NCBI RefSeq assembly: GCF_018977255.1
Contig: NW_024704742.1
Coordinates: 57,538,001-57,602,000 of the forward strand
DNA: 64,000 nt
Reading direction: 5' to 3'
Source of the DNA: Callorhinchus milii
Lineage: Eukaryota
Shown here: piece by piece, positions 2,811-47,268 of the stretch
Position numbering within the stretch: the first letter of the stretch is position 1
Layout of the letters: each line of letters starts with the position of its first letter
Position numbers and translations under genes: made by a program
The notes under the pieces: model-generated
Seen by the model: the letters and a program-made list of their open reading frames with translations, nothing else
The model's database searches: none
Told to the model about the DNA's origin: nothing

Positions 2811-3127
2811 TACAGTGAAAATTTACATTTATATAGTGCCTTTTACATTGGGAGAAATTATGAGAATTGAGAATTGTTGTGTGCAAATTGGATGCCACAT
2901 TCACCGACAAATATATAGCCCCTTACTTTAAATCTTGTGAAATACTTCAAAATATGTTGACAATGTGATAATGCACTGTATGATGCGTAGCAATTATTAT
3001 TGTATTGCTCAGTATCATCCCATTTCTTACATCTATACAACTATGTCTGCTGCAAAAAAGAATGATTTACTGCTAATTGTTTAACTATTTCTTAAAATTT
3101 ATAACTGTTATATCCTATGAAACATAC

Positions 3128-3283
3128 CTGGAACTGCAAGAGGTGATTTTTCTCATAGTCAAGTGCCTCAGATTTGGCTACTTGAAGTGCTATGTTTGCC
3201 TCATTATAAATGATATATTGATTCAAGATAAAAGCAGTCAAATTTCTTCCTTTAAGAAACACTTCAAATGTTCCGTTGTTACC
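3128..3283 (-). CDS. CDHR2-like: Cadherin EC4 exon [12 protein letters not shown]...[15 protein letters not shown]
   Basis: LDYE motif; TCTAG acceptor, GTATGT donor, 156 nt. Confidence 0.9.
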
Positions 3284-6200
3284 CTAGATTAAACAAAAAA
3301 AATCTTAAGGTCAGATATTGGGAGGAAAAAATATTATTCTTTTGACTAGATTTTTTAAAAAACGAAATTAACTGACTTGGTCTTTGTCCTGCACAAAGAT
3401 GTGAAGAATGGTCATCCCACTCGCGGTTTCCTCAGGCACAGTGACGTGATACGTCTCAGTGACTTTCCTGTGCTCAGAATAAAAGGTTGGCTTATTGTCA
3501 TTCACATCGAGTATTAATATTGTCACTGGTGTTGTCACTGAGGCAAAGGTGTCTTTAACACCCCCGAAAAATTCAAAAGCCTGAAATAAAAAANTTATGC
3601 TTTGTTAGAGAACATGCTTTGTTAGAAACCAGAAAAGCTGGGATTGTTCTCCTTAGAGCACAGAAGGTTAAGGAGAGATTTAATAGAGGTGTTCAAAATT
3701 ATGAGGGGTTTTGATAGAGTAAATAGGGAGAAACTGTTTCCACTGGCAGTGGGTCGGTAACTAGGGGACATAGATTTAAGATAATTGTCAAAAGAACAGG
3801 AGGGGAAAAGAGGAGAATTTTTTTTACACAGAGAGTTGTTACGGTCTGGAATGCACTGCCTGAAAGGGTGGTGGAAACAGATTCAATAATAAACAACAAC
3901 AAATAATATATAATAATCCTTATAATTGATGTAGCGCTTTATCACGTCTTCGAGACATCTCAAAGTGCTTCACAGAATATACTGTAAAGTGAATTGACTG
4001 TATATTGTGTGGACAAAACACGGCAATCAATTGCACACAGCATTGTCCCACAAACAGTCATGGATTGAAGTGACCAATTTATTTAATTATTTGTTTGGTT
4101 GTTTGCTTGTTTGTTTTTGAAGGAATTATTATCCCCGGAAAAGCAAACCAGAAGCAAATTGCATTATATTATATTTTTCACATTAGGAGGGCGCCCCAAG
4201 ACTGGACAGTTGTGGGACTCTATGTAAATATATGTATTGTACTATATTCAAATGAGGTGTAAAAATGGTAAAGCATAAACAGCACAAATTGGAAATTTTC
4301 TTTGATGACCCACTTTTACTGCTTTCTAAAGTCATCCAGATACAACAACTTGAATTTATATAGTGCCCTTTACCTGGGTAGCATCTTGTAGGGCTTAACA
4401 GTGGTGTGGCTTGACGCTGAGCTCGAAAGAGAGGGGAGATTATCGAAGGCACAGTCAAAGAGGAAAGTCTTCAGGTGTGATTTGAAGATGGACAAAGAAG
4501 GGGCAAGACGGAAGGATTGAGGCAAATTTGGGGTACAGTGGCTAAACGCACGACCACCGGAGGGGATGAGGGACATGCAGCAGACCCATGCCAGCTGAGC
4601 AAAGGAGGTGGGCAGAGGAGTGAGCTGATCGGAGAGGTAGGGAGGTGCCAGGCCATGAACAGATTTGAAAGTGACAGTGAAGATCTTGAAATCCATCCAT
4701 TCTGCAATAGGGAGCCAATGGGGTTGATAGGGGTGCAGAACCTGATACAGGTGATAACACGGTCAACAGAGTTTTGAATCAGGTACAATTAAGTAAAGCT
4801 CAGCCATTAATACCTCTCTTCTTAACCATACCTTCAATGACATTTAATAATCTTGCTGTGTTTCAAAATGATTTTGTCAATGAAAATAGCTCATTTTAAA
4901 ACATCCGTGCTCTTGCCTTGAACGATACGATTTATGACTTACAGTGATATTAAATGTAACATGTTCTCCTCTCATATCTTCCCTGTCCAACAAAGAGACA
5001 ACACTGATTGTACCAGTTATTTCATCCACATCAAATGCTGTTGTACCTGAATTAAAACCATAAAGAAATATCTCAATAATGATTTACAAAAATGCCTTTG
5101 GAGGTGACATGATGAAATACAAATCTCCAGGGAATCCAACCCGATGAACATAATACCGACCCACAAAAACTCAGCTCCAAACCAAGACAAACAAAATGAA
5201 AGTTCACAGAGGTATTGAAAAAACAAAGGGGAGAAGAAAAGCTGTGGTGGAAAGGCAACAACAGATTGGAAGTAGCCTGTCAGTCAGCAATGAACAAAAC
5301 AAGCATGGTAAAAGAGGTAAATCTTTGGGCAGGCTTTGAAAGTAGGGAGAGAGAGCATGGGTCATAGGGACTCTGGGATGAAGTTCACAAGAGTGAGTGC
5401 AAAATGGCAGAAAGCTCACATGCTAATGGTGGGGCGGATGGCATAAAATAAAATCCAATAAAACATGCAATAAAATCGGATGTATTATATGATAACCATC
5501 TCAAATTTATTTTCCTGAAAATACATCTTAATTCTGCAATACGCACCGCTAATGCTGTATCTGACTGGGTTGTTGATGCCTCTGTCTCCATCAATTGCCA
5601 TAACTGTAATGATACCTGTTTTCTAAACAAAGTACAGCTACATTTCAGACATGTAATTTTTACAAAACCACCATAATATACAGAAACGTGATCCACAATG
5701 CAATGTGTTAACCTGCTCCATCTGCTGAAACACTTACGGTAGGCAAATTCTCAGGAATACGGACGTGATAAAAAGGGCTAAGAAATTCCGGTGGTTTATT
5801 TGGAATATCAATCACGTTTATAATCAAACTTGCAGTGGCATTTTTTGTTTCCGGTATGCCTTGATCCTGTTAAAAGAATTGAATTCAGGCGTTCAGTTTT
5901 CTGTATGCTATGTTGATTTATGTCATGTTTTAATAGACCAGGATTTAAAAGGGGTCCTTGTTTTTCTACAGAATAAATCCAGATGCTCTGGGATCACTTT
6001 ACCCAACTTTGCTCTTGAATAAATAGTAATAATAATAATAATTCTTACATTTGTTACAGTGCTTTCCACGTCAGGAGGATTTTTACTGTAAAGTGGTGTG
6101 ACTGTTTTGTTGTGGGCAAATGCAGCAGCCATGAAGTGAATGATCAATTTTATTTGGGGCATTTTTGGCCAGGACACTGGAGAAACACCCTTTCCTTTTC

Positions 6201-9200
6201 GAATAGTGCCATGGAATCTTTAATGTCCACTAGAACAGGCATGGAAAGAACAGCATCTCCAACAATACAGCCCTGCATTGGAGTGTCAGCTTAGACTATA
6301 TAAGTTTCAAGTCATAACAAGATGCTTTAACCACAACAGAGTATCGTTTTTTAAAAAAATGTAAATTTAAAACGATCTTTTTACCTTTATTTTAGAACAC
6401 TTCAAATCTATCTTGGTATCTGAGTAGCTTTAGTATTGTGATATTGACGTGTGATGTGGAAATGTAGCCTGGTCACCCCATAGACACAGGCGTCTACATG
6501 GAACTGGCAGTCAAAGAGTCAAGAACATTCTCTGCCTCCAGCCATTCATAAAAACATTACACGCATAGAAAGTGTAACCAAATCTATTACAGAATATCTA
6601 TGCAAGGAAGACTTATTTATGACTATTGGTACTTACCACTGCCATAATAAGAACCTGGTAAATGCTGCATATGGAGAAGTCCAGTTGACCTTGTAGATAA
6701 ACACAGCCATTTTTGGATATTTCGAACAATCCAGTGTTATCTGAGGGTATAAGCTAAGCACACATACACAAGTTACATAACCTGAACATATGTTGTAGAC
6801 ACAATCTGAATCCAGTTTTATATTAGTTGTACAATAGGAAACAAAGAAAAGCAAAAGCAAAAAGTAAAATAAAAGGATTACCTCCAGAATTACGTAGGTT
6901 ACAGAACCATTATTGCCTTTATCGGAGTCCTTGGCTAATACTTTGAATATTTCTGTGCCGACATTTTCATCCTGTTCCAAAAATTAATAATTTTAAAGCA
7001 ATCTTGAAATGATTACAATCTATCTGGCAAAATATAATTTAAAAACAAAACAAATGTAAAACAATACATTTGAAACATGTTACACTGGGTACCTCTGGTA
7101 TATCTGCCTGATATGGTAATCCCTTAAATACTGGTGCATTGTCATTGACATCCTCAATGTATACATGCAGAATCTTTTTCACCTACAGAAGGAGAAGCAT
7201 AAGGTCCATAAGTACACATGGAAACAACATATAACATATTTCACCAAGGATGAACACCTCAGTGTAGTGCTGGGGTGTGCTGCATTATTGGAGATGATGT
7301 CCTTTGGATGAGGAGTTAATCTAATGTTCTGGTGAGCGTTACAAATCCCCTTGGCATATTCAGAAAGCGAAGGGTGTCCAACCCAAGAATTTCCCAAATA
7401 TAAAAATTGGCCGTTCACTTCATGCCTGTGTGCAAATTGGCTGTTGCGCTGTAAAGTGCTTCACAGAAATGAAAAGGAGCACCAAGCAGGGAAGCGAGGA
7501 GGAGAAGATACAGTTTTACTAAGAGACTAATTTGTAAAAAAAGCACAATTAAAATATTTTACACATACTGATATTAATTTTGGCTTCACATCCATAATTA
7601 TCTCAAAGACCTGTACCTATAATAAATCATTATAAATAATTCATATGTTCTCTTTTGTTTAGGAAATTTGAAAGCTTGTCTTCCCATTGTGTAAGAATGA
7701 CTTGCAGCAGTGTTGCTCCCACAAACAGTCGCGGATTGAGTGACCAAATTATTATTTTTTAAAAAAAGGGATTATCACCCTAGAAAGCAATCCGCCTATT
7801 GACTAACACCTGGGTTCCTACTTACTGCTGGGTAAACAGAGGTGTGTGGAGTAAGAAAACTTGCCCAACGTTTCACCCTGCCCAGGAATCAAACCCAGGT
7901 CATCTCACTTATGAGTTGAGTGCTCCAACCACTAAGCTACAGGACTCCACTCTTTTGGAGCCCTAACTGATTTAGATATGGCTTAGTTGTGTCCTACTGC
8001 CACAGGATCTCCTGGTTCAGTTTGGATGAACTCTTAAAAACTTGAACATAGGTTTCCGCAACCAACTAACTATAAAAAAGTCTGGTTCACTGTTCACATG
8101 ATGTGTTGGGTAATTTAAGCCATGAAAGTATTGAAATTTAGATTGCTCTTAAAAAAAAGAAAATTAACAAGAGTTGCAGTGAAATGTTGATGGGCATTAA
8201 AGATCACATGGCATTATTCGAAAAAAGAAGGGAGTTTCTCTTGGTGTTCTGCCAAACAATCCAGCAAAATAAAATTATGGAGAGCTTTGAGACAGCCTGC
8301 CGACTACATCAAATATAAGAATTATTATTACTTAAGAATGTATTACTGAATTATCAAATTGATTGAAAAAAGTTAATTTGACCGTTTTAAGTGGAAATAT
8401 AATACAATTTTATATTTATATAACTGCCTTTTATGTTGGAAGATTGTCTAAAGGCTCTTTTGAGTCCTAGCCTGGCACTCGTGTTGGGAGTGGAACCTGG
8501 GGAGGGTGGGAGATGGGGAGGGGGAAGATGATCAAAGATAGACATTATCTTGAGATAGACCTTAAAAGAGGTAAGGGAGGAAGCCAGAAAACTTGGACAT
8601 AACCAAATTCTTATGAAATGCATCTGTAATCAAACCTTCATAACCCCAAAGCCATCAGCAAACAATAAACAAATATCAGTGAGCAAACAATGCCAAAATT
8701 GTATGATTGTTTGTGAGCGTTGGATTTTAAGGACAGTTTCAAAGATTATGGGGCATGGAATTACTTATCCCACATACATTCCTTCTTCACGAGAGATCAG
8801 AAAGGGATTCAGATAAATGAAAAAGGCCCCTTTACATCTCATCCTGCCAGAATACAAACCCGACCATTATATTTCTTAAATGAGCAACAAATTCCACTTT
8901 AACAAGATTGACTGAATTGGCACTGAAATCTGACATCCATTTGAAATACCAGACAAGATACAAGATCCCCACTAATGCTAGTCTGTGATCAGTCAATAGG
9001 AAATGTCATTCCAGAAAGGGAGAAGTAGGTCTACTAACTTTACCTTCCCCTGAGATTGAATGCTTGGCTACGGCTGCAGTTCAAATAAGAGCTTGTGGCA
9101 GTAAAACTTGCTGACTGAAAGTAATGAAGCTTAAGCAAGACTGCTATTTGAATTTGGGTCTCTAAATGTGGGAGACCAATAATCTATCCCAATAGCCGCT

Positions 9201-12200
9201 TGAGCACTTTCATATTGCATTCTTTTGAACATTTCATGTTTATGTTCATTTTATGAAAATAATCACAGAAATTATTCAACTCAAAGAGCACTTAACAGAG
9301 AACATGAATGAACTTTGAGAGATGTGCATTGAATGGCAATTGTGAGCAGAACAAAACACAATTGACACAGATTTGTTTGGAAGAAGAACCTTTCAGACCA
9401 TCTAATCTCATCCTTCCAGAATACCTAATCTACTATCCTCCCATCTCAGAATCAAGCTATAATTTTTAAATGAGTCTTGTATCCTAGCATCAATCACCCT
9501 TCCTGGCAACCTGTTACAGTCTTTAATTACCTCTAGGTAAAGAAAAGGTCCCTGATATCTGTCCTTAAATTGCTAACGGTCCATCGGCAGATCTGGCTTC
9601 TCCACACCACACCAAGATCTACCACTTCACTTTTGCCACCGCCAAATCCTCCTTCTACTCCAAGGTTATCTTGGAGTCAAAGGACAAGCCCCAGCTTCTC
9701 TTTTCCACCACAAACCGTCTCTTCTGTCCACATTGCCACGCCCCGCCCATCCTCTCCTCAAACTCAACTGTGAGGAGATGATGGATTTCCTCAAAACCAA
9801 AATTGAGGGGATACGTTCAGCCACCTCAGCCCCATCCACACTCACACCCACACCCACATTACCTCTCCCTCATGATCCACCCCCCACCCATCCCCCCATA
9901 CACCTTTGACCCTATCTCTCCCTCTTCCCTCTCCGCGATTGTTCACAAACTCAAACCCACCATCAGCTCCATCGATCCCATCCCCACCCCGCTCCTCATC
10001 TCCCAGCTCCACCTTCTGGCCCCTCTCCTGTCCGACGTCATCAATCTCTCCTTGTCAACAGGTTCAGTTCCAACCGTCATCACCCCCATCTTGAATAAAC
10101 CTTCCCTGGACCAATCCCTCCTCTCCAGCTACCACCCCATCTCTAACCTCCCAATCCTCTCCAAGGTCCTGGAACAAGTCGTCGGGTCCCAGCTCCACTC
10201 CTTTCTCTCTCACCATTCCCACTTTGAACCCCTCCAATCCGGCTTCCGTGCTGTCCACAGCACGGAAATAGCCCTGGTCAAAGTCACTAATGACGTTCTG
10301 AACATCTGTGATCAGGTCTCCCTCTGCTTCCTTGTCCTCCTCGACCTCTCTGCCACCTTCGACACGATCGACCACTCCATCCTCATACACCTCCTCTCCT
10401 CTTTACTTAATCTTCGCAGACCTGCCCTTGCCTGGTTCCTATCTCTCTCACCGTCTCCACTTTGTTGCCTCTAACGGATTCTCCTCCAGCCCCCGCACTT
10501 TCACGTCTGGTGTCCCCCCAGGGCTCTGTCCTTGGCCCTCTCGTCTTTAATATCTACATGCTCCCCCTTGGTGACATCATCCGCAGACATGGGGTCAACT
10601 TTCTGCTTCCACCCTCAACCCCAGGACCACTGCTGTCCTGACAGACTGTCTGTCGGACATCAAGTCCTGGATGAGGGCAAATTTCCTACAGTTGAATGTG
10701 AACAAGACTGAGGCCCTCCTGATTGGCTCGTGCCAGTGCCTCAGCACCTCAGGCTCTGGCAGCATCAACCTCCATGGTTGTTCGCTTCAACTCACCAAGC
10801 CAGTCAGGAACAGAGGTGTCTTTTTCGACCCTCAACTGTCTTTTCTTCCACACGTCCAAACCATGACCCGCTCTGCCTTCCCTCACCTCCGTAACATCAC
10901 CCAACTCTGCCACCCCTCAGGCCACTGAAACTCTTGTTCATGCCTTCATCACCTCCAGGCTCGACTAAGCAAATACCCTGCTTGTTGGCCTTCCCAACTC
11001 CTCCCTCCACAGGCTGCAGATAATCCAGAACTCTGCAGTCCTTGTCCTCTCCCGCACCAAACTCTGTGACCCCATCTCCCCCATTCACACCCGACTCCAT
11101 TGGTTCCCTATCCTTCAGAGGATCCAGTTGAAGATCCAGGTCCTCACCTACAAAGTCCTCAATGGTCTCGCCCCACCCTATCTCTGTGACCTCCTAAACC
11201 CCCAACCAACCCGCCCATTCCCTCCGCTCAGCCGGCTCTGGCCTGCTCCATGTCCCCCAACCCACCCACCCCACCATTGGCGGGAGTACCTTCAGCCACT
11301 GTGCCCCCAACCTCTGGAACTCCATCCCCCAATCACTCTGCCTTGCCCCTTCCTTAGCCTCCTTCAGGTCCCACTTCAAGACCCTCCTCTTTGACCATGC
11401 CATTAGTCACCCCCATTCCCCTCCCCTCCCTTCTCCCCCCCGACCCCAGCTCGGGTCTGAAATGCTTTACACGTCCTCCCGACTTGTTATTGTTTTTGCA
11501 ACTCTAAACCTAAGGCCTCTTGTTTTACTGTCTCAGTGCATCCTGAAGTATTGTTCTGAATTTACCATTTCAATCCTTTTTAAATGTTGTACGCTTTTAA
11601 AGGTACTACTACACCGTCTTTTCTCCAGACTAAAAAACCTTAGCTTGCCTAATGGTTGTTCATAGCTCATTCCTCTAACAATGGTGATCAACAACAACAA
11701 TTTACACTTCTATAGCGCCCTTCTTGCAGGGTAGCATGTCAGAGTGCTCAACAGTGGTGAAGCCTGAGTCCGAGCCGGGGGAGGACGAAGGTGGCCGTAA
11801 GCACGGTCGAAGAGGAAAGTTTTCTGATGGGACTTGAAAGAGGGGAGAAGGGGGCAAGGTGGAGGGTTTGAGTTAGTGTGTTCCAGAGTTTTGGGGCATA
11901 GTGGCTGAAAGCACGACCTCCAATGGTAGAGCAGAGTGTGTAAGAGACAATCAGGAGTCTGGTGCCAGTCGAGCGGAGGCGCTGGGTAGTGGATTGGAGA
12001 GTGAGGAGATCGGAGATGTAGGGAGGTGCCAGGGAGTGAAGGGATTTGAAGACGAGTGTGAGGATCTTGAAGTCAATCCGTTCAGTGATGGGGAGCCAGT
12101 GAAGTCAGGCCAGAACTGGTAAGATGTGGGTACGTAGTTTGGTCAGTGTCAGTTTGTGGGCGGCAGAGTTCTGAATGAGCTGGATCTTTTGAATAGTGGA

Positions 12201-15200
12201 GCTGGGGAGACCGGTGAAGAGGGAGTTGGAATAATCCAAGCGGGAGGTGACAAACGCATATTCGAGGGTCATCATTGTTGCTCTCCTCCTACTGTCTCTA
12301 GGGCCTGGGAAGCTCCCTTGTGTCCACTACATTTTACAATAAATCTTGTGAAATGTTTTGAGACTTTCTGATGATGTTATAAGGCAAATGCAAGGATTAT
12401 TATTATTTTATTAATATCATTAAAGCTACTTACTATTGCATTTATCCCATCATTAACCGTAATAATTATTCCAAAGTGATCATTGTTGTTTGCATATGCC
12501 TGTAAAATACAAAAAAATTGGGTTCCAGATTTGTGCAACAAAAGACCTACATAAAATGTGCTATGCATAAAAATCGCAGATACTTATTCCATTCGTCTTC
12601 ACAGTATTCCATTCACTGATGGTTCCTCAGGTCAAATGAGAATAATAGGGTCTAAGATTGCAGTGATTTCTTACAGCAATCGGACTATAGGAACTTGAAA
12701 TGCGCTTTAAGATGTTTCAACTTGATAAAACTATATTAAATGCAAGGATTATTATTATTATTTAACATTAATCAGAACAACTAGATATGTCTTCAGTTTC
12801 ACCTTAAATGATAACATCTCTAACAATGCTTCAGTACACACTAATGTCAGCCTCGGTTATGAACTTAAGTCCTGCTCTTGATAGGATCCAAGTGGGAAGA
12901 ATTACAATTGCAGGTCAAATGATTCTAAAATAATAATCCTTTCCATTTGATAGAGAACCTTATCATGTTATCAAGACGTCTCAAAGGGCTTCACAGGCTA
13001 TATGTAAAGGGGTATGACTGTGTATTTTATGGACAACAACAATAAATTACACTTATATAGCACCCTTCACATTGGAAAGATGTCCCAGGGCACTGGATAG
13101 TCAGGGTTTTTTTTGACCTGAGCTGGGAGTTGGGGTCAGGAGGGGTGGAGGGTAGGGGTGTGGGGGTGGGAAGATGTCCAAAGGCACGGTCGAAAAGGAA
13201 AGTCTTTAGATGGTATTTAAAGGAGGCAAGAGAGGGGTGAGGCAGAGGAACTGCGGGATAGAGTTCCAGAGTGTGGGGGCAGATGAGCCAAAAAAAAGGA
13301 CAAAATGCAGATGAGCAAAAAATGGTCACTTTCTTAATTTATAATGTGAATCCAGCAGTGATTTCTCTTACAACTGGTGAACTGGTGAATGAACTGTATT
13401 CCAGTATCCACCAGTCAACAAGTAAGATACCTGTCCTAGTTACAGTCTGTTTTACATAGATGCACAGTAAATGAAGAATAGATAAAATACCTATAAAATA
13501 TCATACCTCTCTGTCAATGGACTCTTTAATAGTTACATCACCACTCCTGTTGTTCACTGTAAAGTAAACTGAAGCTGGCAGTTCCTCGAGCCCATATAAG
13601 AGCGAATCACCATCCTTATCTTCAGCTGCCAGCTTAAAAACAGACACACCTGGAGTGGAAAATATGAAGGAAAATATTCAGGGAAGGAAATAAAACTATG
13701 AGCATTGGAGGAAAACGAAAACAAATGATCAATAGGAAAGTAAAAACAGCTCAAGAGAAAGAATTACAAATGTGTTAAACTCAAAGCAATGCAAGAACAT
13801 ATGCTGATATGTATAATCTTTGGAAAAGAACAGTAATACAGAGATCATAATTGGAAGAGGGAATATTGAGAGAGAATAATTAAGAAACTTGGGCTCATGA
13901 TAACCTTTTGTTTCTGCTGAGCACGTTACAATACAGTGGAGTCCTGTAGCTCAGTGGTTAGAGCACTCGCTTTGCAAGTGAGAGACCTGAGTTCAATTCC
14001 AGGCAGGGCGAAACCTTGGGCAAGTTTCCTTACTCCACACGCCTAATAATAATCCCTCCAAAAACAAAAACAATAATAAATTGGTCATTTTCAATCTACG
14101 ACTGTTTGTGGGACATTGCTGTGCGCAATTGGCTGCCGCGTTCGCCCACAAATATACAGTCAATTCACTTTGCAGTGTGTTCTGTGAAGCGCTTTGGGAC
14201 GTCCTCTCGACGTGAAAAGCGCTATATCAAATGCAAGGATTATTATTATTATTATTACAATGTAAAATCAGTATAATGTCAGCATAACATTACATGATTC
14301 AATGTAATGGCCAGGTACATAGTGAATATTAACAACAACAATAACAACTTGCACTTATATAGCGCCCTGCACACAGGGAAGTGACTCAAAGTGCTTAAAA
14401 GCATCTGAAAGGTAACGTTGCGAAATTCAGCAGAAAATAAATGTAAAAACTAAGAAACAAACATCAAATAAATATCTTTAGATTAACATGTCAGTTGCTG
14501 TTTAGAATGATGCCAAAGACAAGATGTTTAATGGATATCAATAGTCATTGAAATAGTTGACGTACACAGTAAAGCAATAGTTTGAATTTTCACAATTCCA
14601 GGTCAATTGGAATTATGCTACAGGTAACTCTCTGTCTCCCGTGTACAGAGGGGCATCCTCCTCATGTGAATGGCACTTATGCAAATGCATTTTTGTATTT
14701 TATAAGATCATAAGAAAGATTTGGTTGAAAAAGACCCTTTGGCTGATTTGATCACATTTTTCTACAAAACCCTCCCTAGAGTCTTCCCATTACTTCCAAT
14801 TCTTAAATGATTCCAGTGTCCTGAGCTCAACCACCCTTCCTGTAAACCTCTTCCAGCTGTTACCAATAATTACCCTTTGCTTGAAGAAATACTTATGCTG
14901 TTTGTTGTAAAATTTGCCCTGGGCAATGATCAACTTATGCTTGGTTGTTTTATTGTCATGGGAAAAATGCAAGAAAATGGGACTAAATGGACAGTTCTTG
15001 CAAAAATGGACACAATGAGTGGAATGGTCTCTATGCTCTAAATTTCTATGGTTTCATGGCATATCTGAAAGTACTGTTCAGGGATCAAATTACTGACGGA
15101 TAGTTTGGTATGATCAAAAGCCTTTCCTCCTTAATCTATTGGAATAATTTTCATTTACCTTCCATTCAATGTGCCATTGAGATCCAATGCATAACATATA

Positions 15201-16374
15201 ATTGAGAACAGATTGTTAGAAATATCCATACTGTTTGTTACTGCTTTCTGGGTTTACCTGGTAGTGCATCTTCATTCAGGCGAACAACTGTCATATTTGT
15301 CATAAAAGTTGGGGCTAGGTTTTGTGACTTAGTTAATGTAAAAGCTTCTGAAACAAAATAAGAAAACAAACCCATTTAAGATATACAGTATTTGACATTT
15401 TAAAAAAATGAAGTGAAATAATCTTTGCATTTTATACAGCGTCTTTCAGGAGGATGTCACAAAGTGTTTCACAGAATTTACTGTAAAGTGTAGCAATTAT
15501 ATTCTGTAGTGAATGAAGCAACCAATTATTTGTATTCCAGGGCTTCCTCTGATGACTCTGTGGTAAATGCAATGCTTAAGGTACAACAGGGCCAGGGTGC
15601 TGGACTCATTTAAAAAACAGCTCAGTGCTGCGATGAATGTAGGGTGGATATTCTTGAAGGATAAGATCAGTTAGAAACTGGGGTCTTCTTCATCCAAACC
15701 AATCTTGTGATCTTATGAAGATCAGGCATGTCTCAGGTTTATTGGATTAGTAATAATTACGGGTAAGAGGTGGACACATGATCTGGTATTGCATCCACCA
15801 ATCACTTATTATTTAACCTATGTTGAAAAATGCCTATGTGTGGGCAGAATAGGGCTTGAGCTATGTTGTCTCCTCCATGGTTGAATGGCCTGCTGATAGT
15901 CACTGTCCAGCCTGGGATATCTGTAAATCAGAATGGTCACTGGGGAGAGGTACTGAAGAAGTGATAGGGCCAATTAAAGTGTACTCTGGCTTGAGCTACT
16001 GCCTTCAGAAGAGGAGGGCAGAGTAGAAAAAAACAATGTTATTCAATTACTAAACCAACCTCTAAGTCTTCAGAGGGGCAGTTGTGGCATGTTGGTGGCA
16101 GTCAAGGCCATCTTAGTTATATATTTATTTAACTCTTTAGATAATCAAGCCATCTCTCTCTATCTCTCTCACACACATAAAATACACCTCCACAACACAT
16201 TGACTTCCTCACACCTCCCTGTATATAACTGTGTAATTGTGATAGTTCAGATAGTTAAAGATTTGCTGGTGTGCAAAGAAGGACCAAGCAGGGACGTTAT
16301 AAGCACTTACTTGTAATAAAAATGATGACCATTATCCCCATACACTGAAGCATTTTCATTTGTTCCAGCACCAT
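3128..16374 (-). CDS. CDHR2-like: Cadherin-related family member 2-like gene (CDH23/CDHR1/CDHR2 group), 12 coding exons, 3'-partial (continues past window start)
   Basis: Hand-spliced exons 16311-16374, 15258-15347, 13507-13649, 12434-12499, 7093-7182, 6882-6971, 6637-6753, 5738-5866, 5547-5622, 4943-5046, 3377-3580, 3128-3283. All introns are GT-AG, phases match, and the 1329 nt (443 codons) contain no stop. Cadherin motifs present: [12 protein letters not shown], AxDxD, LDYE. The N-terminus [22 protein letters not shown] resembles human CDHR2 NVAPKFLANMTSVILPEDLPVG (recalled). Confidence 0.9.
3377..3580 (-). CDS. CDHR2-like: Cadherin EC3-EC4 exon AFEFFGG...[14 protein letters not shown]...VQDKDQ
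   Basis: DVNDNKPTF motif; TTTCAG acceptor, GTCAGT donor, 204 nt. Confidence 0.92.
3630..3892 (+). mobile_element. CR1 LINE 3' fragment
   Basis: [24 protein letters not shown]...[14 protein letters not shown]. Confidence 0.85.
4343..4790 (-). mobile_element. L2 LINE 3' fragment
   Basis: [21 protein letters not shown]...[11 protein letters not shown]-terminus with (TTG)n tail. Confidence 0.8.
4943..5046 (-). CDS. CDHR2-like: Cadherin EC3 exon (G)[34 protein letters not shown]
   Basis: LDRE motif; TTCAG acceptor, GTAAGT donor, 104 nt, phase 1-0. Confidence 0.92.
5547..5622 (-). CDS. CDHR2-like: Cadherin EC3 exon [25 protein letters not shown]
   Basis: AIDGDRGIN motif typical of CDHR1/CDHR2/CDH23 EC3; 76 nt, phase 0-1. 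Confidence 0.9.
5738..5866 (-). CDS. CDHR2-like: Cadherin EC2-EC3 exon [43 protein letters not shown]
   Basis: TTAACAG acceptor, GTAAGT donor, 129 nt. Confidence 0.9.
6637..6753 (-). CDS. CDHR2-like: Cadherin EC2 exon [39 protein letters not shown]
   Basis: CTTAG acceptor, GTAAGT donor, 117 nt, phase 0-0. Confidence 0.88.
6882..6971 (-). CDS. CDHR2-like: Cadherin EC2 exon [30 protein letters not shown]
   Basis: AxDxD motif; AG acceptor and GTAATC donor, 90 nt; forms the start of ORF 6633..6980. Confidence 0.93.
7093..7182 (-). CDS. CDHR2-like: Cadherin EC1-EC2 linker exon [30 protein letters not shown]
   Basis: Canonical DxNDNxPxF motif; TTCTGTAG acceptor, GT donor, 90 nt. Confidence 0.93.
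7700..7950 (-). mobile_element. tRNA-derived SINE, long subfamily, 3'-partial
   Basis: Same head plus central CCTCTGTTTACCCAGCAGTAAGTAGGAACC segment. Confidence 0.8.
9577..11490 (+). mobile_element. L2 LINE, 5'-truncated RT region, frameshifted
   Basis: [58 protein letters not shown]. Confidence 0.9.
11690..12260 (-). mobile_element. L2 LINE 3' fragment inserted into a CR1 remnant
   Basis: (CAA)n tail on the plus strand; same L2 3' sequence as the copies at 4343 and 37067. Confidence 0.75.
12434..12499 (-). CDS. CDHR2-like: Cadherin EC1 exon [22 protein letters not shown]
   Basis: TTTTACAG acceptor, GTAAGT donor, 66 nt, phase 0-0. Confidence 0.85.
13035..13290 (-). mobile_element. L2 3' end fragment
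   Basis: [18 protein letters not shown] plus conserved L2 tail. Confidence 0.75.
13507..13649 (-). CDS. CDHR2-like: Cadherin EC1 exon [19 protein letters not shown]...[12 protein letters not shown]
   Basis: CTCCAG acceptor, GTATGA donor, 143 nt, DxDxD and DRE motifs. Confidence 0.92.
13936..14257 (+). mobile_element. Young tRNA-Ala-derived SINE, short subfamily, full length
   Basis: A box TAGCTCAGTGG, B box GTTCAATTCC, body CCTTGGGCAAGTTTCCTTACTCC, tail GCGCTATATCAAATGCAAGG(ATT)n; nearly identical to the copies at 19359 and 40519. Confidence 0.92.
15258..15347 (-). CDS. CDHR2-like: Cadherin exon (K)[29 protein letters not shown](G), start of EC1
   Basis: TTTCAG acceptor, GTAAAC donor, 90 nt, phase 1-1. 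Confidence 0.9.
16311..16374 (-). CDS. CDHR2-like: Cadherin first coding exon, signal peptide [21 protein letters not shown]
   Basis: ATG at 16374 (alternative in-frame ATGs follow), hydrophobic stretch, phase-1 donor GTAAGT that joins the next exon in frame. Confidence 0.75.
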
Positions 16375-19686: not shown

Positions 19687-19728
19687 GTTAGGCTACAACT
19701 GGAGTATTGCTTTTGGGTTTGGGCACCT

Positions 19729-32557: not shown

Positions 32558-32957
32558 CATTATTAAACTGTCACAATCAAGATTTTCTCCAAGTCCCATA
32601 GCTGCTTACTGATTTAAGGTCTCTTCTGGTGCTTCAAACAATCTATTCTTCTTGTTAACTTTCTTTTTTATGAATAATAATAGGTTATATTCATGTGTTT
32701 ATCTGTAAATGGTATAAAGTGTTCATTATTCCAAAGAAAATGAACAAATATGCAATGCACAGTAATCTGGGGCAAGATTTTGTACTAAACTAAATCACTG
32801 CAAAAACGGATTTCTAAATTCTACAGATGTAAGATGACAATGCATCAATTAATTTTTGAAGTCTAGCATCTGCTTTGAGATTTTCTGTCTAATTATAGCC
32901 TGAAAGAATTTTAAGTCATAAATTCAATTACACTGAATTTACCACTTGTTTGCTTAC

Positions 32958-35217
32958 CGAGGAGAATTAAATCCACTGTCTACTGTTATACTGCTGCTGT
33001 CCATGCTATCTAGTCGAGCAGTGTGCGTAGTTTTCTGGCTGGTATTGTTATCACCTTCCTTGGGGAGAGTTAGATTCTTCTCAAACTTTCTCTGGAGGCT
33101 CTTCTCTTTCTCTCGTTCTAGGAGCCACTGTACAGTTCCACCGTCCTCTCGGTTCTTAGCCTCCTCTTGTTTTTTGTTCGTCCCATCTTCAGACTCATCA
33201 TCAGAAACATTGTAATAGTCAAAGGAGGATTCTTGGTTCACTGGCTCTTCTTGTCCCTGTGACACAGGCATTAATTGCGTCCCAGCGGTGAGGCCAACAC
33301 ACTCGAGGTTCTCAAGGTTTGTGTGGAGCACCTCAGAAGGGTTCTTGTGTTGTGATTCATACAATGAAATCCCAGATGATTCCTGGTAACTGTTCTCCAC
33401 ATACTTTCCAGGCAGAATTTCAGAATGTGGTTTGAAGACTTCTCCATTCGGCAATGACAGTGTGGATGCTTGCCCAGCTCCAGGCAGACTAATGTTGGTG
33501 TCCACTTTTTCAGGATAATGGCTCTGTTGGAGTGACAATTGCTCAAGCTGTCCATTCACATTTTCTTCAATAGGAGAGTGTTTGGAGAACCTGTCCAAAG
33601 GGGACAGATTTTTAACTCCATCTGACAAGGTCAAATTTTCATAGCCCTTGAACAGATGCTCATCATTACATCCAGTTGATGGAGAAGACGCAGTCAAAAT
33701 ACCCTCCTTAGATGTATTACACTGAAAGTAATCAGCAGCTGCTGGGTCTGTTGCGCAACAGTTGGGTTCACTGAATTTGGACAAACCCTCTTCAACTGTA
33801 ATGTGTTCAAGTGGATTGCAAGGATCAGCAGGACCTGGTGTACTGTTATCAATATCAACGCACTCAGGTATACATGGCTCTGTAATATGATTTGAATGTG
33901 ATGGCAGTCCTGATCTGTGATAACTGAGTAATTTGGAAGAACGTAATTTACTGTCTTCATTAGTGGAATGGCTTTCCTCCAAGCCGCGTCCTTTCATCTC
34001 TTCAGGCGTACCTAACAAGGCAGCACCAAGAGGTCTTTTCGAATTATCCATAGACCTGGATCTCTCCTTAGCTTTACTGCTCCTATCATTTCTTGATTTT
34101 CTGTCTTGAGTATGGCTGTGGCTCCGATGAACCTTGGACTGTAAACTCTCTCTCGAATGTTCATGAAATCGACTCTCCATCCTTCTCTTATATAGATCCC
34201 CAGACACATCCCACTCTGGCGTCACAGGAAAGTGGGATTCAACCATATTTATTTTATCATGTGTTATAAACTCATTATCGCCTTTTAGTTCTATAGTGGC
34301 ACTTTTTTCACACGGTGATCTAGTTACTGGATCATAAAATTCATATTCCCTTGATTCTGGTACATCTAAGTGGGTATCTTCTGAGTGTTCCCCTTTAGGA
34401 ACCCTAGACTTGCTATGTGATCGGGATTTACCATGGGATTTTTTGTGACTTCTACTCTTTTTGCTCTTGCCACTGTGCTGTGCGGAGGAACCTGCTTTAT
34501 TCCTTTGGGCTTTGTCCTCTTCAAGTTTCTTCATCAGCGCTGTGTGTTTCAAGACGTTTTCTACAGTCAGGTCAGGATTGATGCGTTTAATTAACTCCTG
34601 TTCTACCTCCCTTGGTATGGAAGTCGGATTATCTTCATCACGCAATGGCCATTCCTCTGGGGGAAACTGGGCAGAAAAATTCACCAACTGCTTTGATTTG
34701 TCCTTTTTAAAACTTAACCTGAATAGTTTCAGGCCAAATTTTTTAGATTGCTTTTCTCCATCTTTGTGTTTCGGCAGCGTTTCGGTTTTGTACGAACAAT
34801 TCACAGTACTTTTACTTTTCTCTGTGTGGGTTGCTGGCATCAGATTGAAAGAAGGAGGGCAAACAGAGTCCTTACATTCCTTTGTTGATTTTTTCTGAAG
34901 AGTGGATGTATGATTATGAAATTCTTCTCTAAAGCAATTGCAAGAGTCACAGTGGTTTCTATGGTGCGCTCTGTCTCTGACACAGCCAGAGGTGGACGGA
35001 GTGATAGACCCTGGCTGTGGTGACGTACATTGAGACCGATCAGGTATCCTTTCATCCAGATGGTACCATTTGCTATTTGTTCTTATGAGTGAAGGTGTAA
35101 TAAAATAAGTCTGTGGGGTCACGATAAAATAACCATCAGGAGTTGGGTAAATTTTACGCTCTCTCACAAGCATGTTCAATGTGTGCCGCAGAATTTCTTG
35201 ACTGGGTGTGGGAACCC
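32958..35217 (-). CDS. STOX2: Storkhead-box protein 2, large exon (2260 nt) VPTPSQEILRHTLNMLVRERKIYPTPDGYFIVTPQTYF...DSSSITVDSGFNSP(R)
   Basis: ORF 32954..35239; STOX2 signatures FSAQFPPEEWPLRDED, FPVTPEWDVSG, DSGFNSPR; CTATAG acceptor, GTAAGC donor. Confidence 0.97.
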
Positions 35218-36668
35218 CTATAGAAAGAAATACAAACATGTTACATATAATTAAAATGCACTTCTCTTTAATGGTTTACAAATATATTTACCTGCTGGTG
35301 CTTCTATCCAAATTATTTAGTTTCTGTTATTTGTAAAAGTCCTAATGAAAACAAACTTCAAGATCAGTGTTACACAAATGGTTAATATCTCTCAAACTAC
35401 AATAACAACAAGATTACATTTGTATAGTGCCTTTCACGTCGGGAGGACGTCCCAAGGCGCTGGACAGTGTACAGCATTTCAGACAGCTAAGGAAAGAACA
35501 GCTAAGAAAAGAAAGCCGGAAATCCAACTATTAATAATCAGACAAAAAGCATCAGGAAACTGGCTTGTCAGAGTGGTATCTTTGTATTCAATACAAATCC
35601 AAGTCTGTGAGCCAGAACTTATACAGTCATTGTGCCTGGAACTGAATATGGCAGCTAAATATCTAAGTCTTCATTTCTCAGTTAGGTCATTGGGATTCTT
35701 CAGTACAGACAAAAATGGGCACTCCATCTGTCTTGCCCTGGGTTAAGAGTGCCTCCTGTCGGATGAGACGCATGCCATTATTGATAACGAAAATCAGAAA
35801 GATATTCCTATTCTGTGCTGTTTTCCATTGAAAGGGTGACGTGTTTGGATGACTGACTTTGCTGATGTAGGATGTGAGTTAAAAATGAAGAAATTGTTTG
35901 GTAAAGTATATATTCAAACCAGTTTCTGGCATGTTCAACACAGCTCACGGGCGCTTCAGCTCATTCTGCCATTAAATGGGGTCATATAGGAAGCTTCTCA
36001 TAAGACAAATCCTGACCGTGCCACCAGGATAAAGGACCCATCAGAAGGCAGGGGAGAGAAAATCTGCCGATCAGTCAATCTAAGTACACCTGTACTCATC
36101 GTGCCTGTGCCGGCTCTTTGAAAGAGCTATCCAACTAGTCCCACTACCCTGCTCTTACCACATGGGCCTGTAATTGTTTCCTTTTCAAATACCTATCCAA
36201 TTCCTTTTTGAAAGATAATATCAAATCTGCTTCTGCCACCCTTTCAGGCAGTGCATTCCAGATAGTAACAACTCGCTGGGGGAAAAAAATTCCTCATTGA
36301 GAGAGAGAGAGATAGAGAGAAACAGTAAGAGAGAGAAGGGCTGACACAGTGTCGTACCATAATGACAGTATAAATTTAGTTTCCAAATAATTTTCCTAAT
36401 TTTCTCCCCATTGACATATGCTTCTACTACCAGCTTCCTCATCCAGGGAAAAGGTTACACAAGCATTAGTTATCCTCCAGTACCACACCCAGGTAGCCTG
36501 GATTCATGTGCAGTGAGTGTGAGCAGGCTTCACAGCCAAGACAAACATTTCCTCACCTGGCTGCCTCATGTAAGCACAAACAGTTGGAGGGAGTTGAAGG
36601 AACCTGGCTGGCTTTTCCCTCCCTAACCCTGCGATGGAAAGGGCAATTTAGCCTCCCAATGCTACCCT

Positions 36669-45510: not shown

Positions 45511-46581
45511 TTTCTTTTTACAGGCCATGCCAGACTTGTTTTGGTATATGTGCTGTATTTATTTGGTGACTTCTATATGAAATTAGAGCAGTTTTGTTTT
45601 TGATCTTTCTGCTAACACAATGCCATTCTGTCCCAATAGTTGTCTTAACAGTACCTTTAAGAGTTGGAAACAAATCTGATTTTCACCTCATTTTAATTAT
45701 TTGCTCACAGTTCCAATGAAGTTCCCATTAGCCTCATATTCTACATGCTCTCTTTAGTTTATGTGCCGCACCTTCTCCTTTGCTCTTATTTTTGGTTTCT
45801 TTCAACACCACCATCGGAGGCCAAGCCTTCAGAACCTACCGTTGAACCTCCGGAATTCCTTCTCTCTACCCCTCGCTCTCTGTCTTTAATCCCCACCTCA
45901 AAGCCTCCCCTTCTTCAAACATGCCAATGGCCATTTCACCCTTCCCCGCGACTGAGTCTGCCCTTCTAAAGCAATTCATTATACGAAGAGCGCTTCATGA
46001 ATGCAAGTTGTTTTTTGTGTCAGCCTGGCTCACTTGTCCAGTAAATCCTAACTATTGAAACAATTTATTCCCTTCAATGTTTAACTGGCACCGAAGATGC
46101 CAGAATTTCTCCATCTCTGCAGAGCTATTCTAGTAGTATGACGGCAAAGCCAAGTCGATGAATTCCCGCTACACTCACCTCCCAACACCACACTGCACCA
46201 GTGAGACCTTTTTTTATTTCCCATCTCAACCATCCCTGACCTCCCTTAATGAGTATCAATTATTGTTGAATCAGATTTCCATCAGCAATTGGGTTGAGAA
46301 TGTCCAAATACATTACACAGGCAGAAAAGAGGCTTTCGGCACATCTGTCTGGGTTGGATTGAAACTCAGACTCAAGGTGTAACAGGATCTCCCACTCCCC
46401 CACCTTTCTGGGAACTTAGGTTTAGGTGAACAAATAGAGCAGTGATATCATTGAGCTTGACATATTTCTAGACAGGAAAACAAAGATACAACATAACTAA
46501 TTAATTACAGAGAACATTCTGTATTGTATTCTGTAACCTTCCTAACTCTGGAAAAAAACATCTTTATTGTTGAATACATAC

Positions 46582-46734
46582 CTGGAAAGCAGGTAGCTAG
46601 ATGTTCCATGAGAGCCTCCTGGGTGACTCGTTTCCTTGAAGCGTTCATTGCTGAGATGGCCAAGCAAAGAACTTCCCCCAGAGGAATAAACTGTGACTGA
46701 CTGATGGGGGACATACTGATTGGTGACACATCAC
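46582..46734 (-). CDS. STOX2: Storkhead-box protein 2, internal exon (G)[50 protein letters not shown](G), N-terminal half of the winged-helix Storkhead domain
   Basis: Near-identical to the recalled vertebrate STOX2 sequence; CCTCAG acceptor, GTATGT donor, 153 nt, phase 1-1. Confidence 0.96.
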
Positions 46735-47266: not shown

Positions 47267-47268
47267 TA

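What the first reader, a model, noticed from the sequence alone, without database searches (positions are those of the whole stretch)
3128..16374. Hidden, intact CDHR2/CDHR1/CDH23-type cadherin directly downstream of STOX2: candidate paralog lost in mammals
Seen: 12 small exons splice into 443 stop-free codons; the ORF track captures only two of them in frame. Known (recalled): human STOX2 on 4q35 is flanked by TRAPPC11 and ENPP6, with no cadherin there. CDHR2 is on 5q35, while CDHR1, CDH23 and STOX1 are on 10q, and chromosomes 4/5/10 belong to one 2R paralogon. The protein has CDHR2-like exon boundaries and N-terminus, but it lacks the CDHR2 EC2 insertion (GGMYHNTFTIQCS-like) and the Cys loop after the EC3-4 linker (YNCSLPAC-like); it has [12 protein letters not shown] there instead. 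Inference: this may be a further ohnolog of this cadherin group retained in cartilaginous fish.
Basis: partly seen in the sequence, partly recalled or inferred. Interest (0 to 1): 0.8.

Follow-up and report, generated by a model that had tools for sequence, protein, structure and literature searches.

The report
Second CDHR2-type cadherin of cartilaginous fishes
This chimaera gene is an intact, spliced second copy of the brush-border cadherin CDHR2 that sharks, rays and chimaeras have, that was found in no bony vertebrate, and that likely dates from the early vertebrate genome duplications and is predicted to link cell-surface protrusions as CDHR2 does.

Summary
Twelve GT-AG exons on the minus strand (window 16374 to 3128) splice into 443 stop-free codons. 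They are the 5' third of a 31-exon, 68.3-kb, 1329-codon gene that runs past the window start.

Spliced contigs of one public run show several junctions directly and fit the other bridged ones.

The gene is not hidden. NCBI labels it "cadherin-related family member 2-like" in about 15 cartilaginous fishes, including a partial 812-aa model 100% identical here. My full-text searches found no paper on it.

It is not CDHR2 itself. The same genome has a canonical CDHR2 on contig C13, next to a synuclein gene.

The two genes are 36% identical, colinear, and share all 25 compared intron phases.

A rooted tree puts the new gene outside all jawed-vertebrate CDHR2 (support 100/99). Forcing a shark-lineage duplication is rejected (p-AU 0.009).

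The gene sits between STOX2 and ENPP6. IRF, synuclein, STOX and caspase paralogues lie on C1, C7 and C13, as expected of genome-duplication blocks.

No bony-vertebrate orthologue appeared in three protein searches.

The protein keeps 9 EC repeats, the tip calcium site motif and a C-terminal -TDL. Function is inferred, not tested.

Verdict: a new member of a known kind, of moderate interest.

The parts
16311..16374 (-). CDHR2-like exon 1: ATG at 16374 and signal peptide ([21 protein letters not shown])
   Evidence: The donor is CAA|GTAAGT. The 5' end of X1 record 2 is consistent with the exon 1-2 junction.
15258..15347 (-). Exon 2: end of the signal peptide and start of EC1 (mature N-terminus NLAPTF, N9-M-T sequon)
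   Evidence: X1 record 2 covers it.
13507..13649 (-). Exon 3: EC1 with the DKDGD (DXDXD) site-0 motif
   Evidence: X1 record 2 joins it to exon 2.
12434..12499 (-). Exon 4: EC1
   Evidence: The last 62-63 nt of X1 record 2 fit it by length only.
7093..7182 (-). Exon 5: EC1-EC2 linker ([10 protein letters not shown])
   Evidence: Supported by the length arithmetic of X1 record 1.
6882..6971 (-). Exon 6: EC2
   Evidence: Supported by the length arithmetic of X1 record 1.
6637..6753 (-). Exon 7: EC2
   Evidence: X1 record 1 has a piece at 6636-6753.
5738..5866 (-). Exon 8: non-canonical EC2-EC3 linker ([10 protein letters not shown]). It is 15 nt shorter than the matching CDHR2 exon.
   Evidence: X1 record 1 has a piece at 5738-5865.
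5547..5622 (-). Exon 9: EC3
   Evidence: It corresponds to the 78 unlisted nt of X1 record 1, between record positions 536 and 615.
4943..5046 (-). Exon 10: EC3
   Evidence: X1 record 1 has a piece at 4942-5044.
3377..3580 (-). Exon 11: EC3-EC4 linker and [14 protein letters not shown]. It is 24 nt shorter than the CDHR2 exon that carries the Cys loop.
   Evidence: X1 record 1 has a piece at 3376-3579.
3128..3283 (-). Exon 12: EC4. The gene goes on outside the window with exons 13-31 at G000:C1:57527837 down to 57486081.
   Evidence: X1 record 1 has a piece at 3128-3282 plus 74 nt of exon 13.
32954..35275 (-). Large coding exon of the upstream neighbour STOX2 (773-aa open frame, end of the Stork_head domain)
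   Evidence: Pfam PF10264 with E 1.1e-8.
46574..46714 (-). STOX2 exon with the first half of the Stork_head domain
   Evidence: C1:57584574-57584714, E 7.6e-12.

Best explanation
This is an intact gene, seen as spliced contigs, for a CDHR2/protocadherin-24-type cadherin that is a separate paralogue of CDHR2. It likely arose in the early vertebrate genome duplications. It is present in cartilaginous fishes and was found in no bony vertebrate, so it appears to have been lost there.

Shown:
- The gene has 31 GT-AG exons and 1329 codons, on G000:C1:57486081-57554374, minus strand. It lies between STOX2 and ENPP6.
- A second, canonical CDHR2 is on C13.
- The two genes are colinear, share intron phases, and are about 36% identical.
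- An outgroup-rooted tree places the new gene outside all jawed-vertebrate CDHR2.

Inferred:
- The protein would be a type I membrane protein with 9 calcium-dependent EC repeats.
- Its EC1-2 tip carries the site-0 calcium motif and is predicted to make trans links between neighbouring actin-based protrusions (microvilli or similar).
- Its cytoplasmic tail ends in a class I PDZ-binding-type -TDL. That tail would be anchored to a harmonin (USH1C)/myosin-7-type scaffold, as in the CDHR2-CDHR5 intermicrovillar complex and the CDH23-PCDH15 tip link.

The tissue, the binding partner and the binding mode are unknown.
For: Gene model: searches give 30 of 30 introns as GT-AG and no stop codon. One search gives the revised 1329-aa model. 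Spliced contigs of run X1 lie on exons 2-3 and 5-13 and on the exon 30-31 junction.

Orthologues: 14 of 14 hits to exon 11 and the first 17 of the 120 listed hits to the Heterodontus protein are chondrichthyan 'CDHR2-like'. Scores then drop from 1191 to 765 bits.

Separate canonical CDHR2:
- It lies on C13.
- Sharks also carry both genes (P0024 and P0026 against P0012 and P0007).

Relationship to CDHR2:
- Identity to any CDHR2 is 34-37.5%.
- 25 of 25 compared introns have the same phase, and 11 of 24 exon pairs have equal length (read).
- The membrane-proximal region, transmembrane helix and tail find only CDHR2-like (16 proteins) and 15 further proteins, 10 of them named CDHR2 and 13 of named teleost species (31 proteins in all).
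- The best solved N-terminal match is mouse Cdhr2 EC1-3 (E 1e-45).

Timing of the duplication:
- The careful LG+C20 PMSF tree gives CDHR2-like 100/100 and jawed-vertebrate CDHR2 100/99.
- The AU test rejects a clade of CDHR2-like plus chondrichthyan CDHR2 (delta lnL 29.0, p 0.0086).
- Within cartilaginous fishes the new gene evolves more slowly than CDHR2. The same species pair is 73% against 58% identical.

Paralogous blocks:
- STOX genes are on C1 and C7.
- Synuclein genes are on C13 (40 kb from CDHR2), C1 and C7.
- IRF1/2-type genes are on C1, C13 and C7.
- Effector caspases are on C1 and C7.
- CDH23 is on C7.

Functional marks:
- There are 8 linker motifs, hence 9 EC repeats, and a transmembrane helix at 1154-1172.
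- N1 and 32-DKDGD-36 are present in 11 of 11 orthologues. This matches the Cr-2 site-0 motif described by Gray 2021 (PMC8691648, passages).
- The EC2-3 linker reads DIPNK, compared with DXPDL in mouse PCDH24.
- The C-terminus is -TDL in 10 of 11 orthologues. Bony-vertebrate CDHR2 ends in -DL in 13 of 13. The last residues are SFSNAGLESTDL here and SFTNAGLDTTDL in panda CDHR2.
- CDHR2 tails bind USH1C and MYO7B (PMC6337912, passages).
Against: - The CDHR2-like stem (1.02) and the outgroup branches are long, so long-branch attraction could draw the root onto that stem. treekit printed this warning, and the AU test shares the bias.
- No cyclostome, CDHR1 or CDHR5 sequence is in the tree. A duplication older than the genome duplications, followed by differential loss, is therefore not excluded.
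- Inside the CDHR2-like clade the chimaera groups with a shark (87/96). This contradicts the species tree and shows some error in the gene tree.
- Absence from bony vertebrates rests on predicted proteomes of set length ranges (733-2333 aa; 129-2000 aa). It does not rest on inspection of their STOX2-ENPP6 intervals.
- Run X1 is RNA only by the tool's guess. One contig keeps 59 nt of intron 29.
- No binding, localisation or tissue data exist, so all function is by homology at about 36% identity.
- The Mobula model does not end in -TDL.
Confidence: 0.75

Rival explanations
1. A duplicate of CDHR2 made only in the cartilaginous-fish stem lineage. It would have diverged very fast at first and then slowed down. 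By chance it would have landed beside STOX2.
For: The gene is found only in chondrichthyans. Its stem branch is long (1.02), and long-branch attraction could mimic the observed rooting (warning).
Against: The AU test rejects this topology (p 0.0086). The gene is equally distant from chondrichthyan and bony-vertebrate CDHR2 (35.5-37.5% against 33.9-36.4%). It now evolves more slowly than CDHR2 (73% against 58%). It lies in a block whose IRF and synuclein genes have paralogues on the CDHR2 contig C13, with STOX, IRF, synuclein and caspase paralogues on C7.
Confidence: 0.1
2. A paralogue older than the vertebrate genome duplications. On this reading two CDHR2-type genes already existed side by side. 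Each genome-duplication block then kept a different one, so the two are not ohnologues in the strict sense.
For: The same ancestral block already held several Cr-2 cadherins. CDH23 and another cadherin lie on C7 beside STOX1. STOX2 pairs with this gene in the way STOX1 shares a chromosome with CDH23. The two genes are only about 36% identical.
Against: 25 of 25 compared intron phases are shared, and length, architecture and C-terminal motif are colinear. CDH23 aligns colinearly only over model positions 11-745 and joins by a much longer branch.
Confidence: 0.12
3. It is simply the CDHR2 orthologue, moved to a new place (a translocation). Alternatively, it is a decaying or mis-assembled copy.
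For: NCBI's automatic name is 'CDHR2-like'. The old public model of this species is a broken 812-aa fragment.
Against: The canonical CDHR2 on C13 has a synuclein neighbour and groups with bony-vertebrate CDHR2. The open frame is 1329 codons with 30 of 30 GT-AG introns. Spliced contigs exist. Orthologues of 1291-1355 aa are found in about 15 species, at 60-86% identity among the five compared.
Confidence: 0.02

Closest known systems
CDHR2 (protocadherin-24, PCDH24), the long cadherin of the enterocyte intermicrovillar adhesion complex; Cr-2 subfamily
   Same: - About 1300 aa, with 9 EC repeats, a membrane-proximal region, one transmembrane helix and a cytoplasmic tail (PMC8691648 and PMC6337912, passages).
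- Colinear alignment over 92-98% of the length.
- 25 of 25 compared intron phases are shared.
- N1 plus the DXDXD site-0 motif.
- A non-canonical EC2-3 linker of the DxP type.
- Tail motifs VPGTN, NPVWN and SLNSLDEN, and a C-terminal ...SNxxLxxTDL.
   Different: - Only 34-37.5% identical.
- A separate locus between STOX2 and ENPP6, while the true CDHR2 is on C13.
- It branches outside all jawed-vertebrate CDHR2.
- It lacks 5 residues in EC2 and the Cys-bearing loop after the EC3-4 linker.
- It evolves more slowly than CDHR2 in cartilaginous fishes.
- It was found only in cartilaginous fishes.
CDH23 (cadherin-23), upper part of the hair-cell tip link; Cr-2 subfamily
   Same: - The first ~715 residues of 5 of 5 CDH23 proteins align colinearly with positions 11-745 of the CDHR2/CDHR2-like profile (scores 508-532).
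- The same site-0 motif is present.
- Pinette 2019 calls CDH23 phylogenetically related to CDHR2 (PMC6337912, passage).
- CDH23 lies on C7 with STOX1, as this gene lies beside STOX2.
   Different: - CDH23 has 27 EC repeats, by the paper's label EC1-MAD28.
- Identity is 31-32% over 76-78% of the query.
- The tail region finds no CDH23.
- CDH23 joins the tree by a branch of 1.8.
Other genes present in cartilaginous fishes but not in bony vertebrates. Other agents of this scan noted an MGA paralogue and a gp130 paralogue (listing; unchecked by me).
   Same: The same pattern: an ancient vertebrate paralogue present in sharks, rays and chimaeras and not found in bony vertebrates.
   Different: Unrelated gene families. 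Those notes were not tested here and were not used as evidence.

Membership tests
CDHR2/PCDH24-type Cr-2 protocadherins (family in the wide sense) | Nine EC repeats, then a membrane-adjacent domain, one transmembrane helix and a cytoplasmic tail | tested here: met
   Pfam finds 8 Cadherin stretches plus a FAT4_N-type first repeat in orthologue P0006. The window's model has 8 inter-repeat linker motifs and one hydrophobic helix at 1154-1172. The membrane-adjacent domain itself was not identified by any model here. Only colinearity with CDHR2 across that region supports it.
CDHR2/PCDH24-type Cr-2 protocadherins (family in the wide sense) | Calcium site 0 at the EC1 tip: N1, 32-DXDXD-36 (Gray 2021, passages) | tested here: met
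   If the signal peptide is cut after ...SQ, the mature end reads NLAPTF and D32-K-D-G-D36 follows. The motif is present in 11 of 11 CDHR2-like rows. The cleavage site is predicted, not shown.
CDHR2/PCDH24-type Cr-2 protocadherins (family in the wide sense) | Non-canonical EC2-EC3 linker (DXPDL in place of DXNDN in mouse PCDH24) | tested here: met
   The linker reads [10 protein letters not shown] here, IDVPNLDPRF in chicken CDHR2 and VDQPDLDPQF in marmoset. The description comes from the paper passage.
CDHR2/PCDH24-type Cr-2 protocadherins (family in the wide sense) | Shared exon-intron structure with CDHR2 | tested here: met
   Exons 5-29 of this gene were compared with exons 3-27 of the C13 CDHR2. 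25 of 25 introns have the same phase, and all length differences are multiples of 3. The first two exons of my C13 model are not resolved and were left out.
CDHR2/PCDH24-type Cr-2 protocadherins (family in the wide sense) | Cytoplasmic tail with a C-terminal PDZ-binding-type end that docks on USH1C/harmonin | tested here: inconclusive
   The sequence ends -STDL here, -TDL in 10 of 11 orthologues and -DL in 13 of 13 bony-vertebrate CDHR2. The chimaera's own CDHR2 ends -TSVL. Binding itself was not tested. That the motif is 'class I' is my recalled classification.
CDHR2 proper (1:1 orthologue of human CDHR2) | Groups inside the jawed-vertebrate CDHR2 clade and is the only such gene in the genome | tested here: not met
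   It lies outside the clade (100/99). The alternative placement is rejected (p-AU 0.0086). A second gene on C13 takes the CDHR2 position and has a synuclein neighbour.
CDHR2 proper (1:1 orthologue of human CDHR2) | Trans binding to CDHR5 and a place at microvillar tips | not testable with these tools
   No partner sequence of the same species was at hand as one piece, and no localisation data exist.
Ohnologue pair (product of the two early vertebrate genome duplications) | The two genes lie in chromosome blocks that share several other paralogue pairs | tested here: met
   C1 holds this gene, STOX2, an IRF2-type gene, a caspase-3-type gene and a synuclein gene. C13 holds CDHR2, an IRF1/2-type gene and a synuclein gene. 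C7 holds STOX1, an IRF gene, hexokinase, a synuclein gene, CDH23 and caspases. The synuclein on C1 is 56 Mb from the gene.
Ohnologue pair (product of the two early vertebrate genome duplications) | The duplication is dated after the split from invertebrate chordates and before the jawed-vertebrate crown | tested here: inconclusive
   'Before the crown' is supported. The lower bound is untested, because no cyclostome or invertebrate-chordate CDHR2-type sequence was obtained. The representative search was swamped by giant cadherins.

The most novel reading that the evidence does not exclude
Cartilaginous fishes run a third tip-link-type adhesion system beside CDH23-PCDH15 and CDHR2-CDHR5. This slowly evolving Cr-2 cadherin has an intact site-0 tip and a harmonin-type -TDL tail. 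It would form its own links between actin protrusions in a tissue that bony vertebrates organise differently, or with CDHR2 alone. Its loss at the base of bony vertebrates would mark a rewiring of apical-protrusion adhesion.
Probability: 0.3. Interest if true: 0.65.

Novelty: new member of a known kind. Interest (0 to 1): 0.45.

Why it matters
CDHR2 and CDH23 are the long cadherins of the two best-studied links between cell-surface protrusions: gut microvilli and hair-cell stereocilia. A third gene of this type gives a natural comparison. It is ancient and better conserved than CDHR2 itself. It can help show which features of the tip and of the tail are essential. It also gives a dated example of an early vertebrate paralogue found in cartilaginous fishes but in no bony vertebrate.

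For genome annotation, the report supplies a complete 31-exon model. The only public model of this species that my searches returned is a broken 812-aa fragment. It also gives a reason to name the gene as a paralogue of its own, not as 'CDHR2-like'.

Tried and rejected
- Pfam on 10 single-exon translations gave only sub-threshold Cadherin hits, in 5 of 10. Part-domains are too short to score.
- The one HMMER search of the representative library, with exon 18 as query, returned 150 rows that were almost all giant multi-repeat cadherins. Only P0006, P0001 and P0008 were close. It was useless for finding cyclostome or CDHR1-type relatives.
- The look-up of sequencing runs listed no holder on record as RNA. 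Runs X1-X4, X9 and X10 are 'RNA?' by guess.
- X2, X3 and X4 gave only short pieces, mostly on repeats, in the window. Parts without cover say nothing.
- X10 had no depth over exons 29-31, and X9 had only low depth. This is no evidence about expression.
- My first model put the exon 30 donor 21 nt too far downstream. X1 record 4 corrected it, taking the protein from 1336 to 1329 aa.
- My C13 CDHR2 model is unresolved at exons 1-2 (a small exon was skipped) and was joined only as far as ...ENVVDIM. The likely last exon was found separately.
- The C13 IRF exon cannot be assigned to IRF1 or IRF2 (E 1.4e-22 against 1.6e-22). The C1 caspase exon barely separates caspase-3 from caspase-7.
- Supplements: the one file of the catshark paper PMC11979771 could not be read. 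For the whale-shark paper PMC8455134, only part of the 24 held files was fetched (files 13-24 were not), and nothing was found. Such files may still hold expression or gene-loss tables that bear on this gene.
- The search of earlier findings gave nothing on this gene by place, by words or by sequence.
- Complex prediction, structure prediction and fold search were not used. No binding claim is made, and the fold is not in question.
Full report
**What is in the window**

- Stop-to-stop frames on the minus strand between 3.1 and 16.4 kb hold cadherin-like peptides. Five of 10 tested give sub-threshold Pfam Cadherin hits.
- The exon at 3368-3589 is 100% identical to a public 812-aa model named 'cadherin-related family member 2-like [Callorhinchus milii]'. 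All 14 hits of that search are chondrichthyan proteins of the same name.
- The window is G000:C1:57538001-57602000, in a 991.5-Mb genome.

**Gene model**

- I mapped full-length shark orthologues by tblastn and chose GT/AG sites that best fit them.
- This gives 12 exons from the ATG at 16374 to 3128, exactly 443.0 codons.
- The gene continues below the window start. In all it has 31 coding exons and 30 of 30 GT-AG introns, with no stop. It spans C1:57486081-57554374, 68.3 kb.
- The public 812-aa model lacks exons 1-4, 9, 10, 13 and part of 18. It reads through after exon 23.

**Transcript evidence**

- No run is on record as RNA. Run X1 ('RNA?' by the tool's guess) holds 0.11 of the sampled words of a 10-kb stretch whose exons make up 0.14 of it.
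- Laid on window 3000-16500, X1 record 1 (1040 nt) lies on 3128-3282, 3376-3579, 4942-5044, 5738-5865 and 6636-6753, with 0-1 mismatches per piece.
- Its length equals exons 5-12 plus 74 nt of exon 13, exactly.
- Record 2 (311 nt) joins exon 3 to exon 2. Its 5' overhang fits the end of exon 1.
- Intron 4 is not bridged by the listed contigs.
- At the 3' end, X1 record 4 joins exon 30 to exon 31. This moved my exon 30 donor 21 nt upstream, and the model now has 1329 codons.
- That contig also keeps 59 nt of the 104-nt intron 29. The intron is real by homology with the C13 gene.
- The same runs hold spliced ENPP6 contigs. This fits X1 being RNA.

**It is not CDHR2 itself**

- A search of the genome with a shark CDHR2 finds a 62%-identical large exon at C13:4826569-4827192.
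- I mapped 28 exons of that gene from an ATG at C13:4811103, and a likely last exon ending -TSVL.
- Sharks likewise carry both 'CDHR2' and 'CDHR2-like' proteins.
- The new gene is 34-37.5% identical to every CDHR2, cartilaginous or bony.
- Cartilaginous and bony CDHR2 are 39-47% identical to each other.
- Between the chimaera and Heptranchias, the new gene is 73% identical and CDHR2 is 58% identical.

**It is a CDHR2-type gene**

- Alignment with CDHR2 is colinear over 92-98% of the length.
- Exons 5-29 match exons 3-27 of the C13 gene. 25 of 25 introns have the same phase, and 11 of 24 exon pairs have the same length.
- The exon holding the EC2 insertion is 15 nt shorter here. The exon holding the Cys loop is 24 nt shorter.
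- The last 297 residues of the shark protein find only 16 CDHR2-like proteins and 15 further proteins. Ten of these are named CDHR2, 13 are of named teleost species, and 2 are unnamed or have no organism given (31 proteins).
- Among solved structures, the N-terminus matches mouse Cdhr2 EC1-3 best (E 1e-45, against 2.4e-39 for CDH23 EC1-3).

**Age of the duplication**

- I built a profile from 27 CDHR2 and CDHR2-like proteins.
- The first ~715 residues of 5 of 5 CDH23 proteins align colinearly to its positions 11-745. These, plus one insect cadherin fragment, served as outgroup.
- Six other candidate outgroup proteins were left out, because their best matches were short and not colinear.
- The careful IQ-TREE search (LG+C20+F+G4 by PMSF; 33 rows by 1323 columns) gives CDHR2-like 100/100, chondrichthyan CDHR2 100/99, bony-vertebrate CDHR2 96/94, and the two CDHR2 groups together 100/99 on a branch of 0.73.
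- Holding CDHR2-like and chondrichthyan CDHR2 together costs 29.0 log-likelihood units (p-AU 0.0086).
- Caveats:
  - The tool warns that long branches meet, and the test shares that pull.
  - The chimaera sits next to a shark inside the CDHR2-like clade (87/96), against the species tree.
  - No cyclostome, CDHR1 or CDHR5 sequence could be obtained.

**Neighbourhood**

- The upstream neighbour is STOX2 (Stork_head exons at window 46574-46714 and inside 32954-35275).
- Downstream, on the other strand, lie Phosphodiest exons at C1:57455611-57478733. They match mouse ENPP6 far better than any other ENPP (E 5e-29 and 1.4e-18).
- Further on lie an IRF gene closest to IRF2 and a caspase-3-type gene.
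- From memory, the human order at 4q35.1 is STOX2-ENPP6-IRF2-CASP3. On that basis this gene is the one extra gene in the interval. The human order was not tested here.

**Paralogous blocks**

- STOX1 is on C7, with an IRF gene and hexokinase genes close by.
- Further along C7 lie a synuclein gene, CDH23 and caspases.
- C13 holds CDHR2, a synuclein gene 40 kb away, an IRF1/2-type gene and the clustered protocadherins.
- C1 holds this gene, STOX2, the IRF2-type gene, the caspase gene and, 56 Mb away, a synuclein gene.
- Three blocks sharing these families are what the early genome duplications would leave.

**Distribution**

- Every close relative found is chondrichthyan: 14 of 14, the first 17 of 120 listed, 16 of 31, and 3 of 150 representatives.
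- After them, scores fall from 1191 to 765 bits.
- These searches covered set length ranges of predicted proteins only. I could not read any other vertebrate genome.

**Likely mechanism (inferred)**

- The protein has a signal peptide, 8 linker motifs (hence 9 EC repeats) and one transmembrane helix.
- The predicted mature end NLAPTF, with D32-K-D-G-D36, is present in 11 of 11 orthologues. It reproduces the Cr-2 site-0 calcium motif '1N, 32DXDXD36' of human PCDH24 and CDH23 (PMC8691648, passages).
- The EC2-3 linker is non-canonical, as in mouse PCDH24.
- The tail shares VPGTN, NPVWN and SLNSLDEN with CDHR2.
- The tail ends SFSNAGLESTDL, against SFTNAGLDTTDL in panda CDHR2.
- CDHR2 and CDHR5 tails bind USH1C and MYO7B (PMC6337912, passages).
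- I therefore expect a calcium-dependent link between apical protrusions, anchored to a harmonin-type scaffold. Partner, tissue and binding mode are unknown.

**Novelty**

- Five full-text searches found no paper that mentions the NCBI name, that appears among the listed hits linking CDHR2 or PCDH24 with cartilaginous fishes or ohnologues, or that treats STOX2-ENPP6 synteny.
- Two supplement look-ups were blank or unreadable.
- The gene is annotated automatically but, as far as I could search, undescribed.
- It is a new member of a known kind.

Noticed in passing
G000:C7:5506783-5506938 (outside the window): A third IRF gene lies between STOX1 (C7:5.4735 Mb) and the hexokinase genes (C7:5.59-5.63 Mb). 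Its DNA-binding-domain exon starts at the same profile position (about 53-55) as the IRF2-type gene on C1 and the IRF1/2-type gene on C13. It may be a third member of the IRF1/2 group.
   Followed up: partly
L010 594-6973 = G000:C1:57478594-57484973: Spliced contigs show the last ENPP6 exons (594-731, 4617-4740, 5809-6251), and further contigs reach 6973. The 3' end of ENPP6 therefore lies within about 1-2 kb of the stop codon of the cadherin gene, on the opposite strand. The two genes converge closely.
   Followed up: partly
window 52718-54059, minus strand: Two adjacent long open frames (266 aa and 172 aa) lie upstream of the Stork_head-encoding STOX2 exon at 46574-46714, and are probably intronic. 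They have no Pfam match at E 0.001. Their nature is unknown.
   Followed up: partly
window 13921-14046, 18960-19100, 19403-19687, 47156-47300, 56392-56772 and others: A short repeat gives near-identical peptides ([35 protein letters not shown]) and recurs on both strands. The same places show very high contig depth in the laid runs (3902-4352, 13824-14274), as expected of an abundant, transcribed SINE-type element.
   Followed up: no
window 9782-10474 (+) and 1117-1644 (-): LINE fragments lie inside introns 4 and 12 of the cadherin gene: a reverse transcriptase (PF00078, E 8e-10) and an endonuclease (PF14529, E 4e-7).
   Followed up: yes
G000:C7:11459054-11459203 (L002): A further cadherin exon on the STOX1/CDH23 chromosome is most like CDH23 EC2 among solved structures, but only weakly (E 8e-9). 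It is 3.3 Mb from the CDH23 EC1 exon and may be another Cr-2 cadherin such as CDHR1.
   Followed up: partly
C-termini of canonical CDHR2 (P0024, P0026; C13 about 4835.5 kb): The two shark CDHR2 proteins end -DIDI and -SIDI. The chimaera's CDHR2 ends -TSVL. Bony-vertebrate CDHR2 ends -DL in 13 of 13 (-TTDL in 11, -TSDL and -SVDL in one each). The CDHR2-like gene keeps -TDL. In sharks it is thus the extra paralogue, not CDHR2, that keeps the -TDL ending of bony-vertebrate CDHR2.
   Followed up: partly
window 3594, window 29554, and G000:C1:57508546: Single N bases. The first lies in intron 10, 14 nt before exon 11. The third lies in intron 22, 15 nt before exon 23. None falls in coding sequence of the model.
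   Followed up: yes
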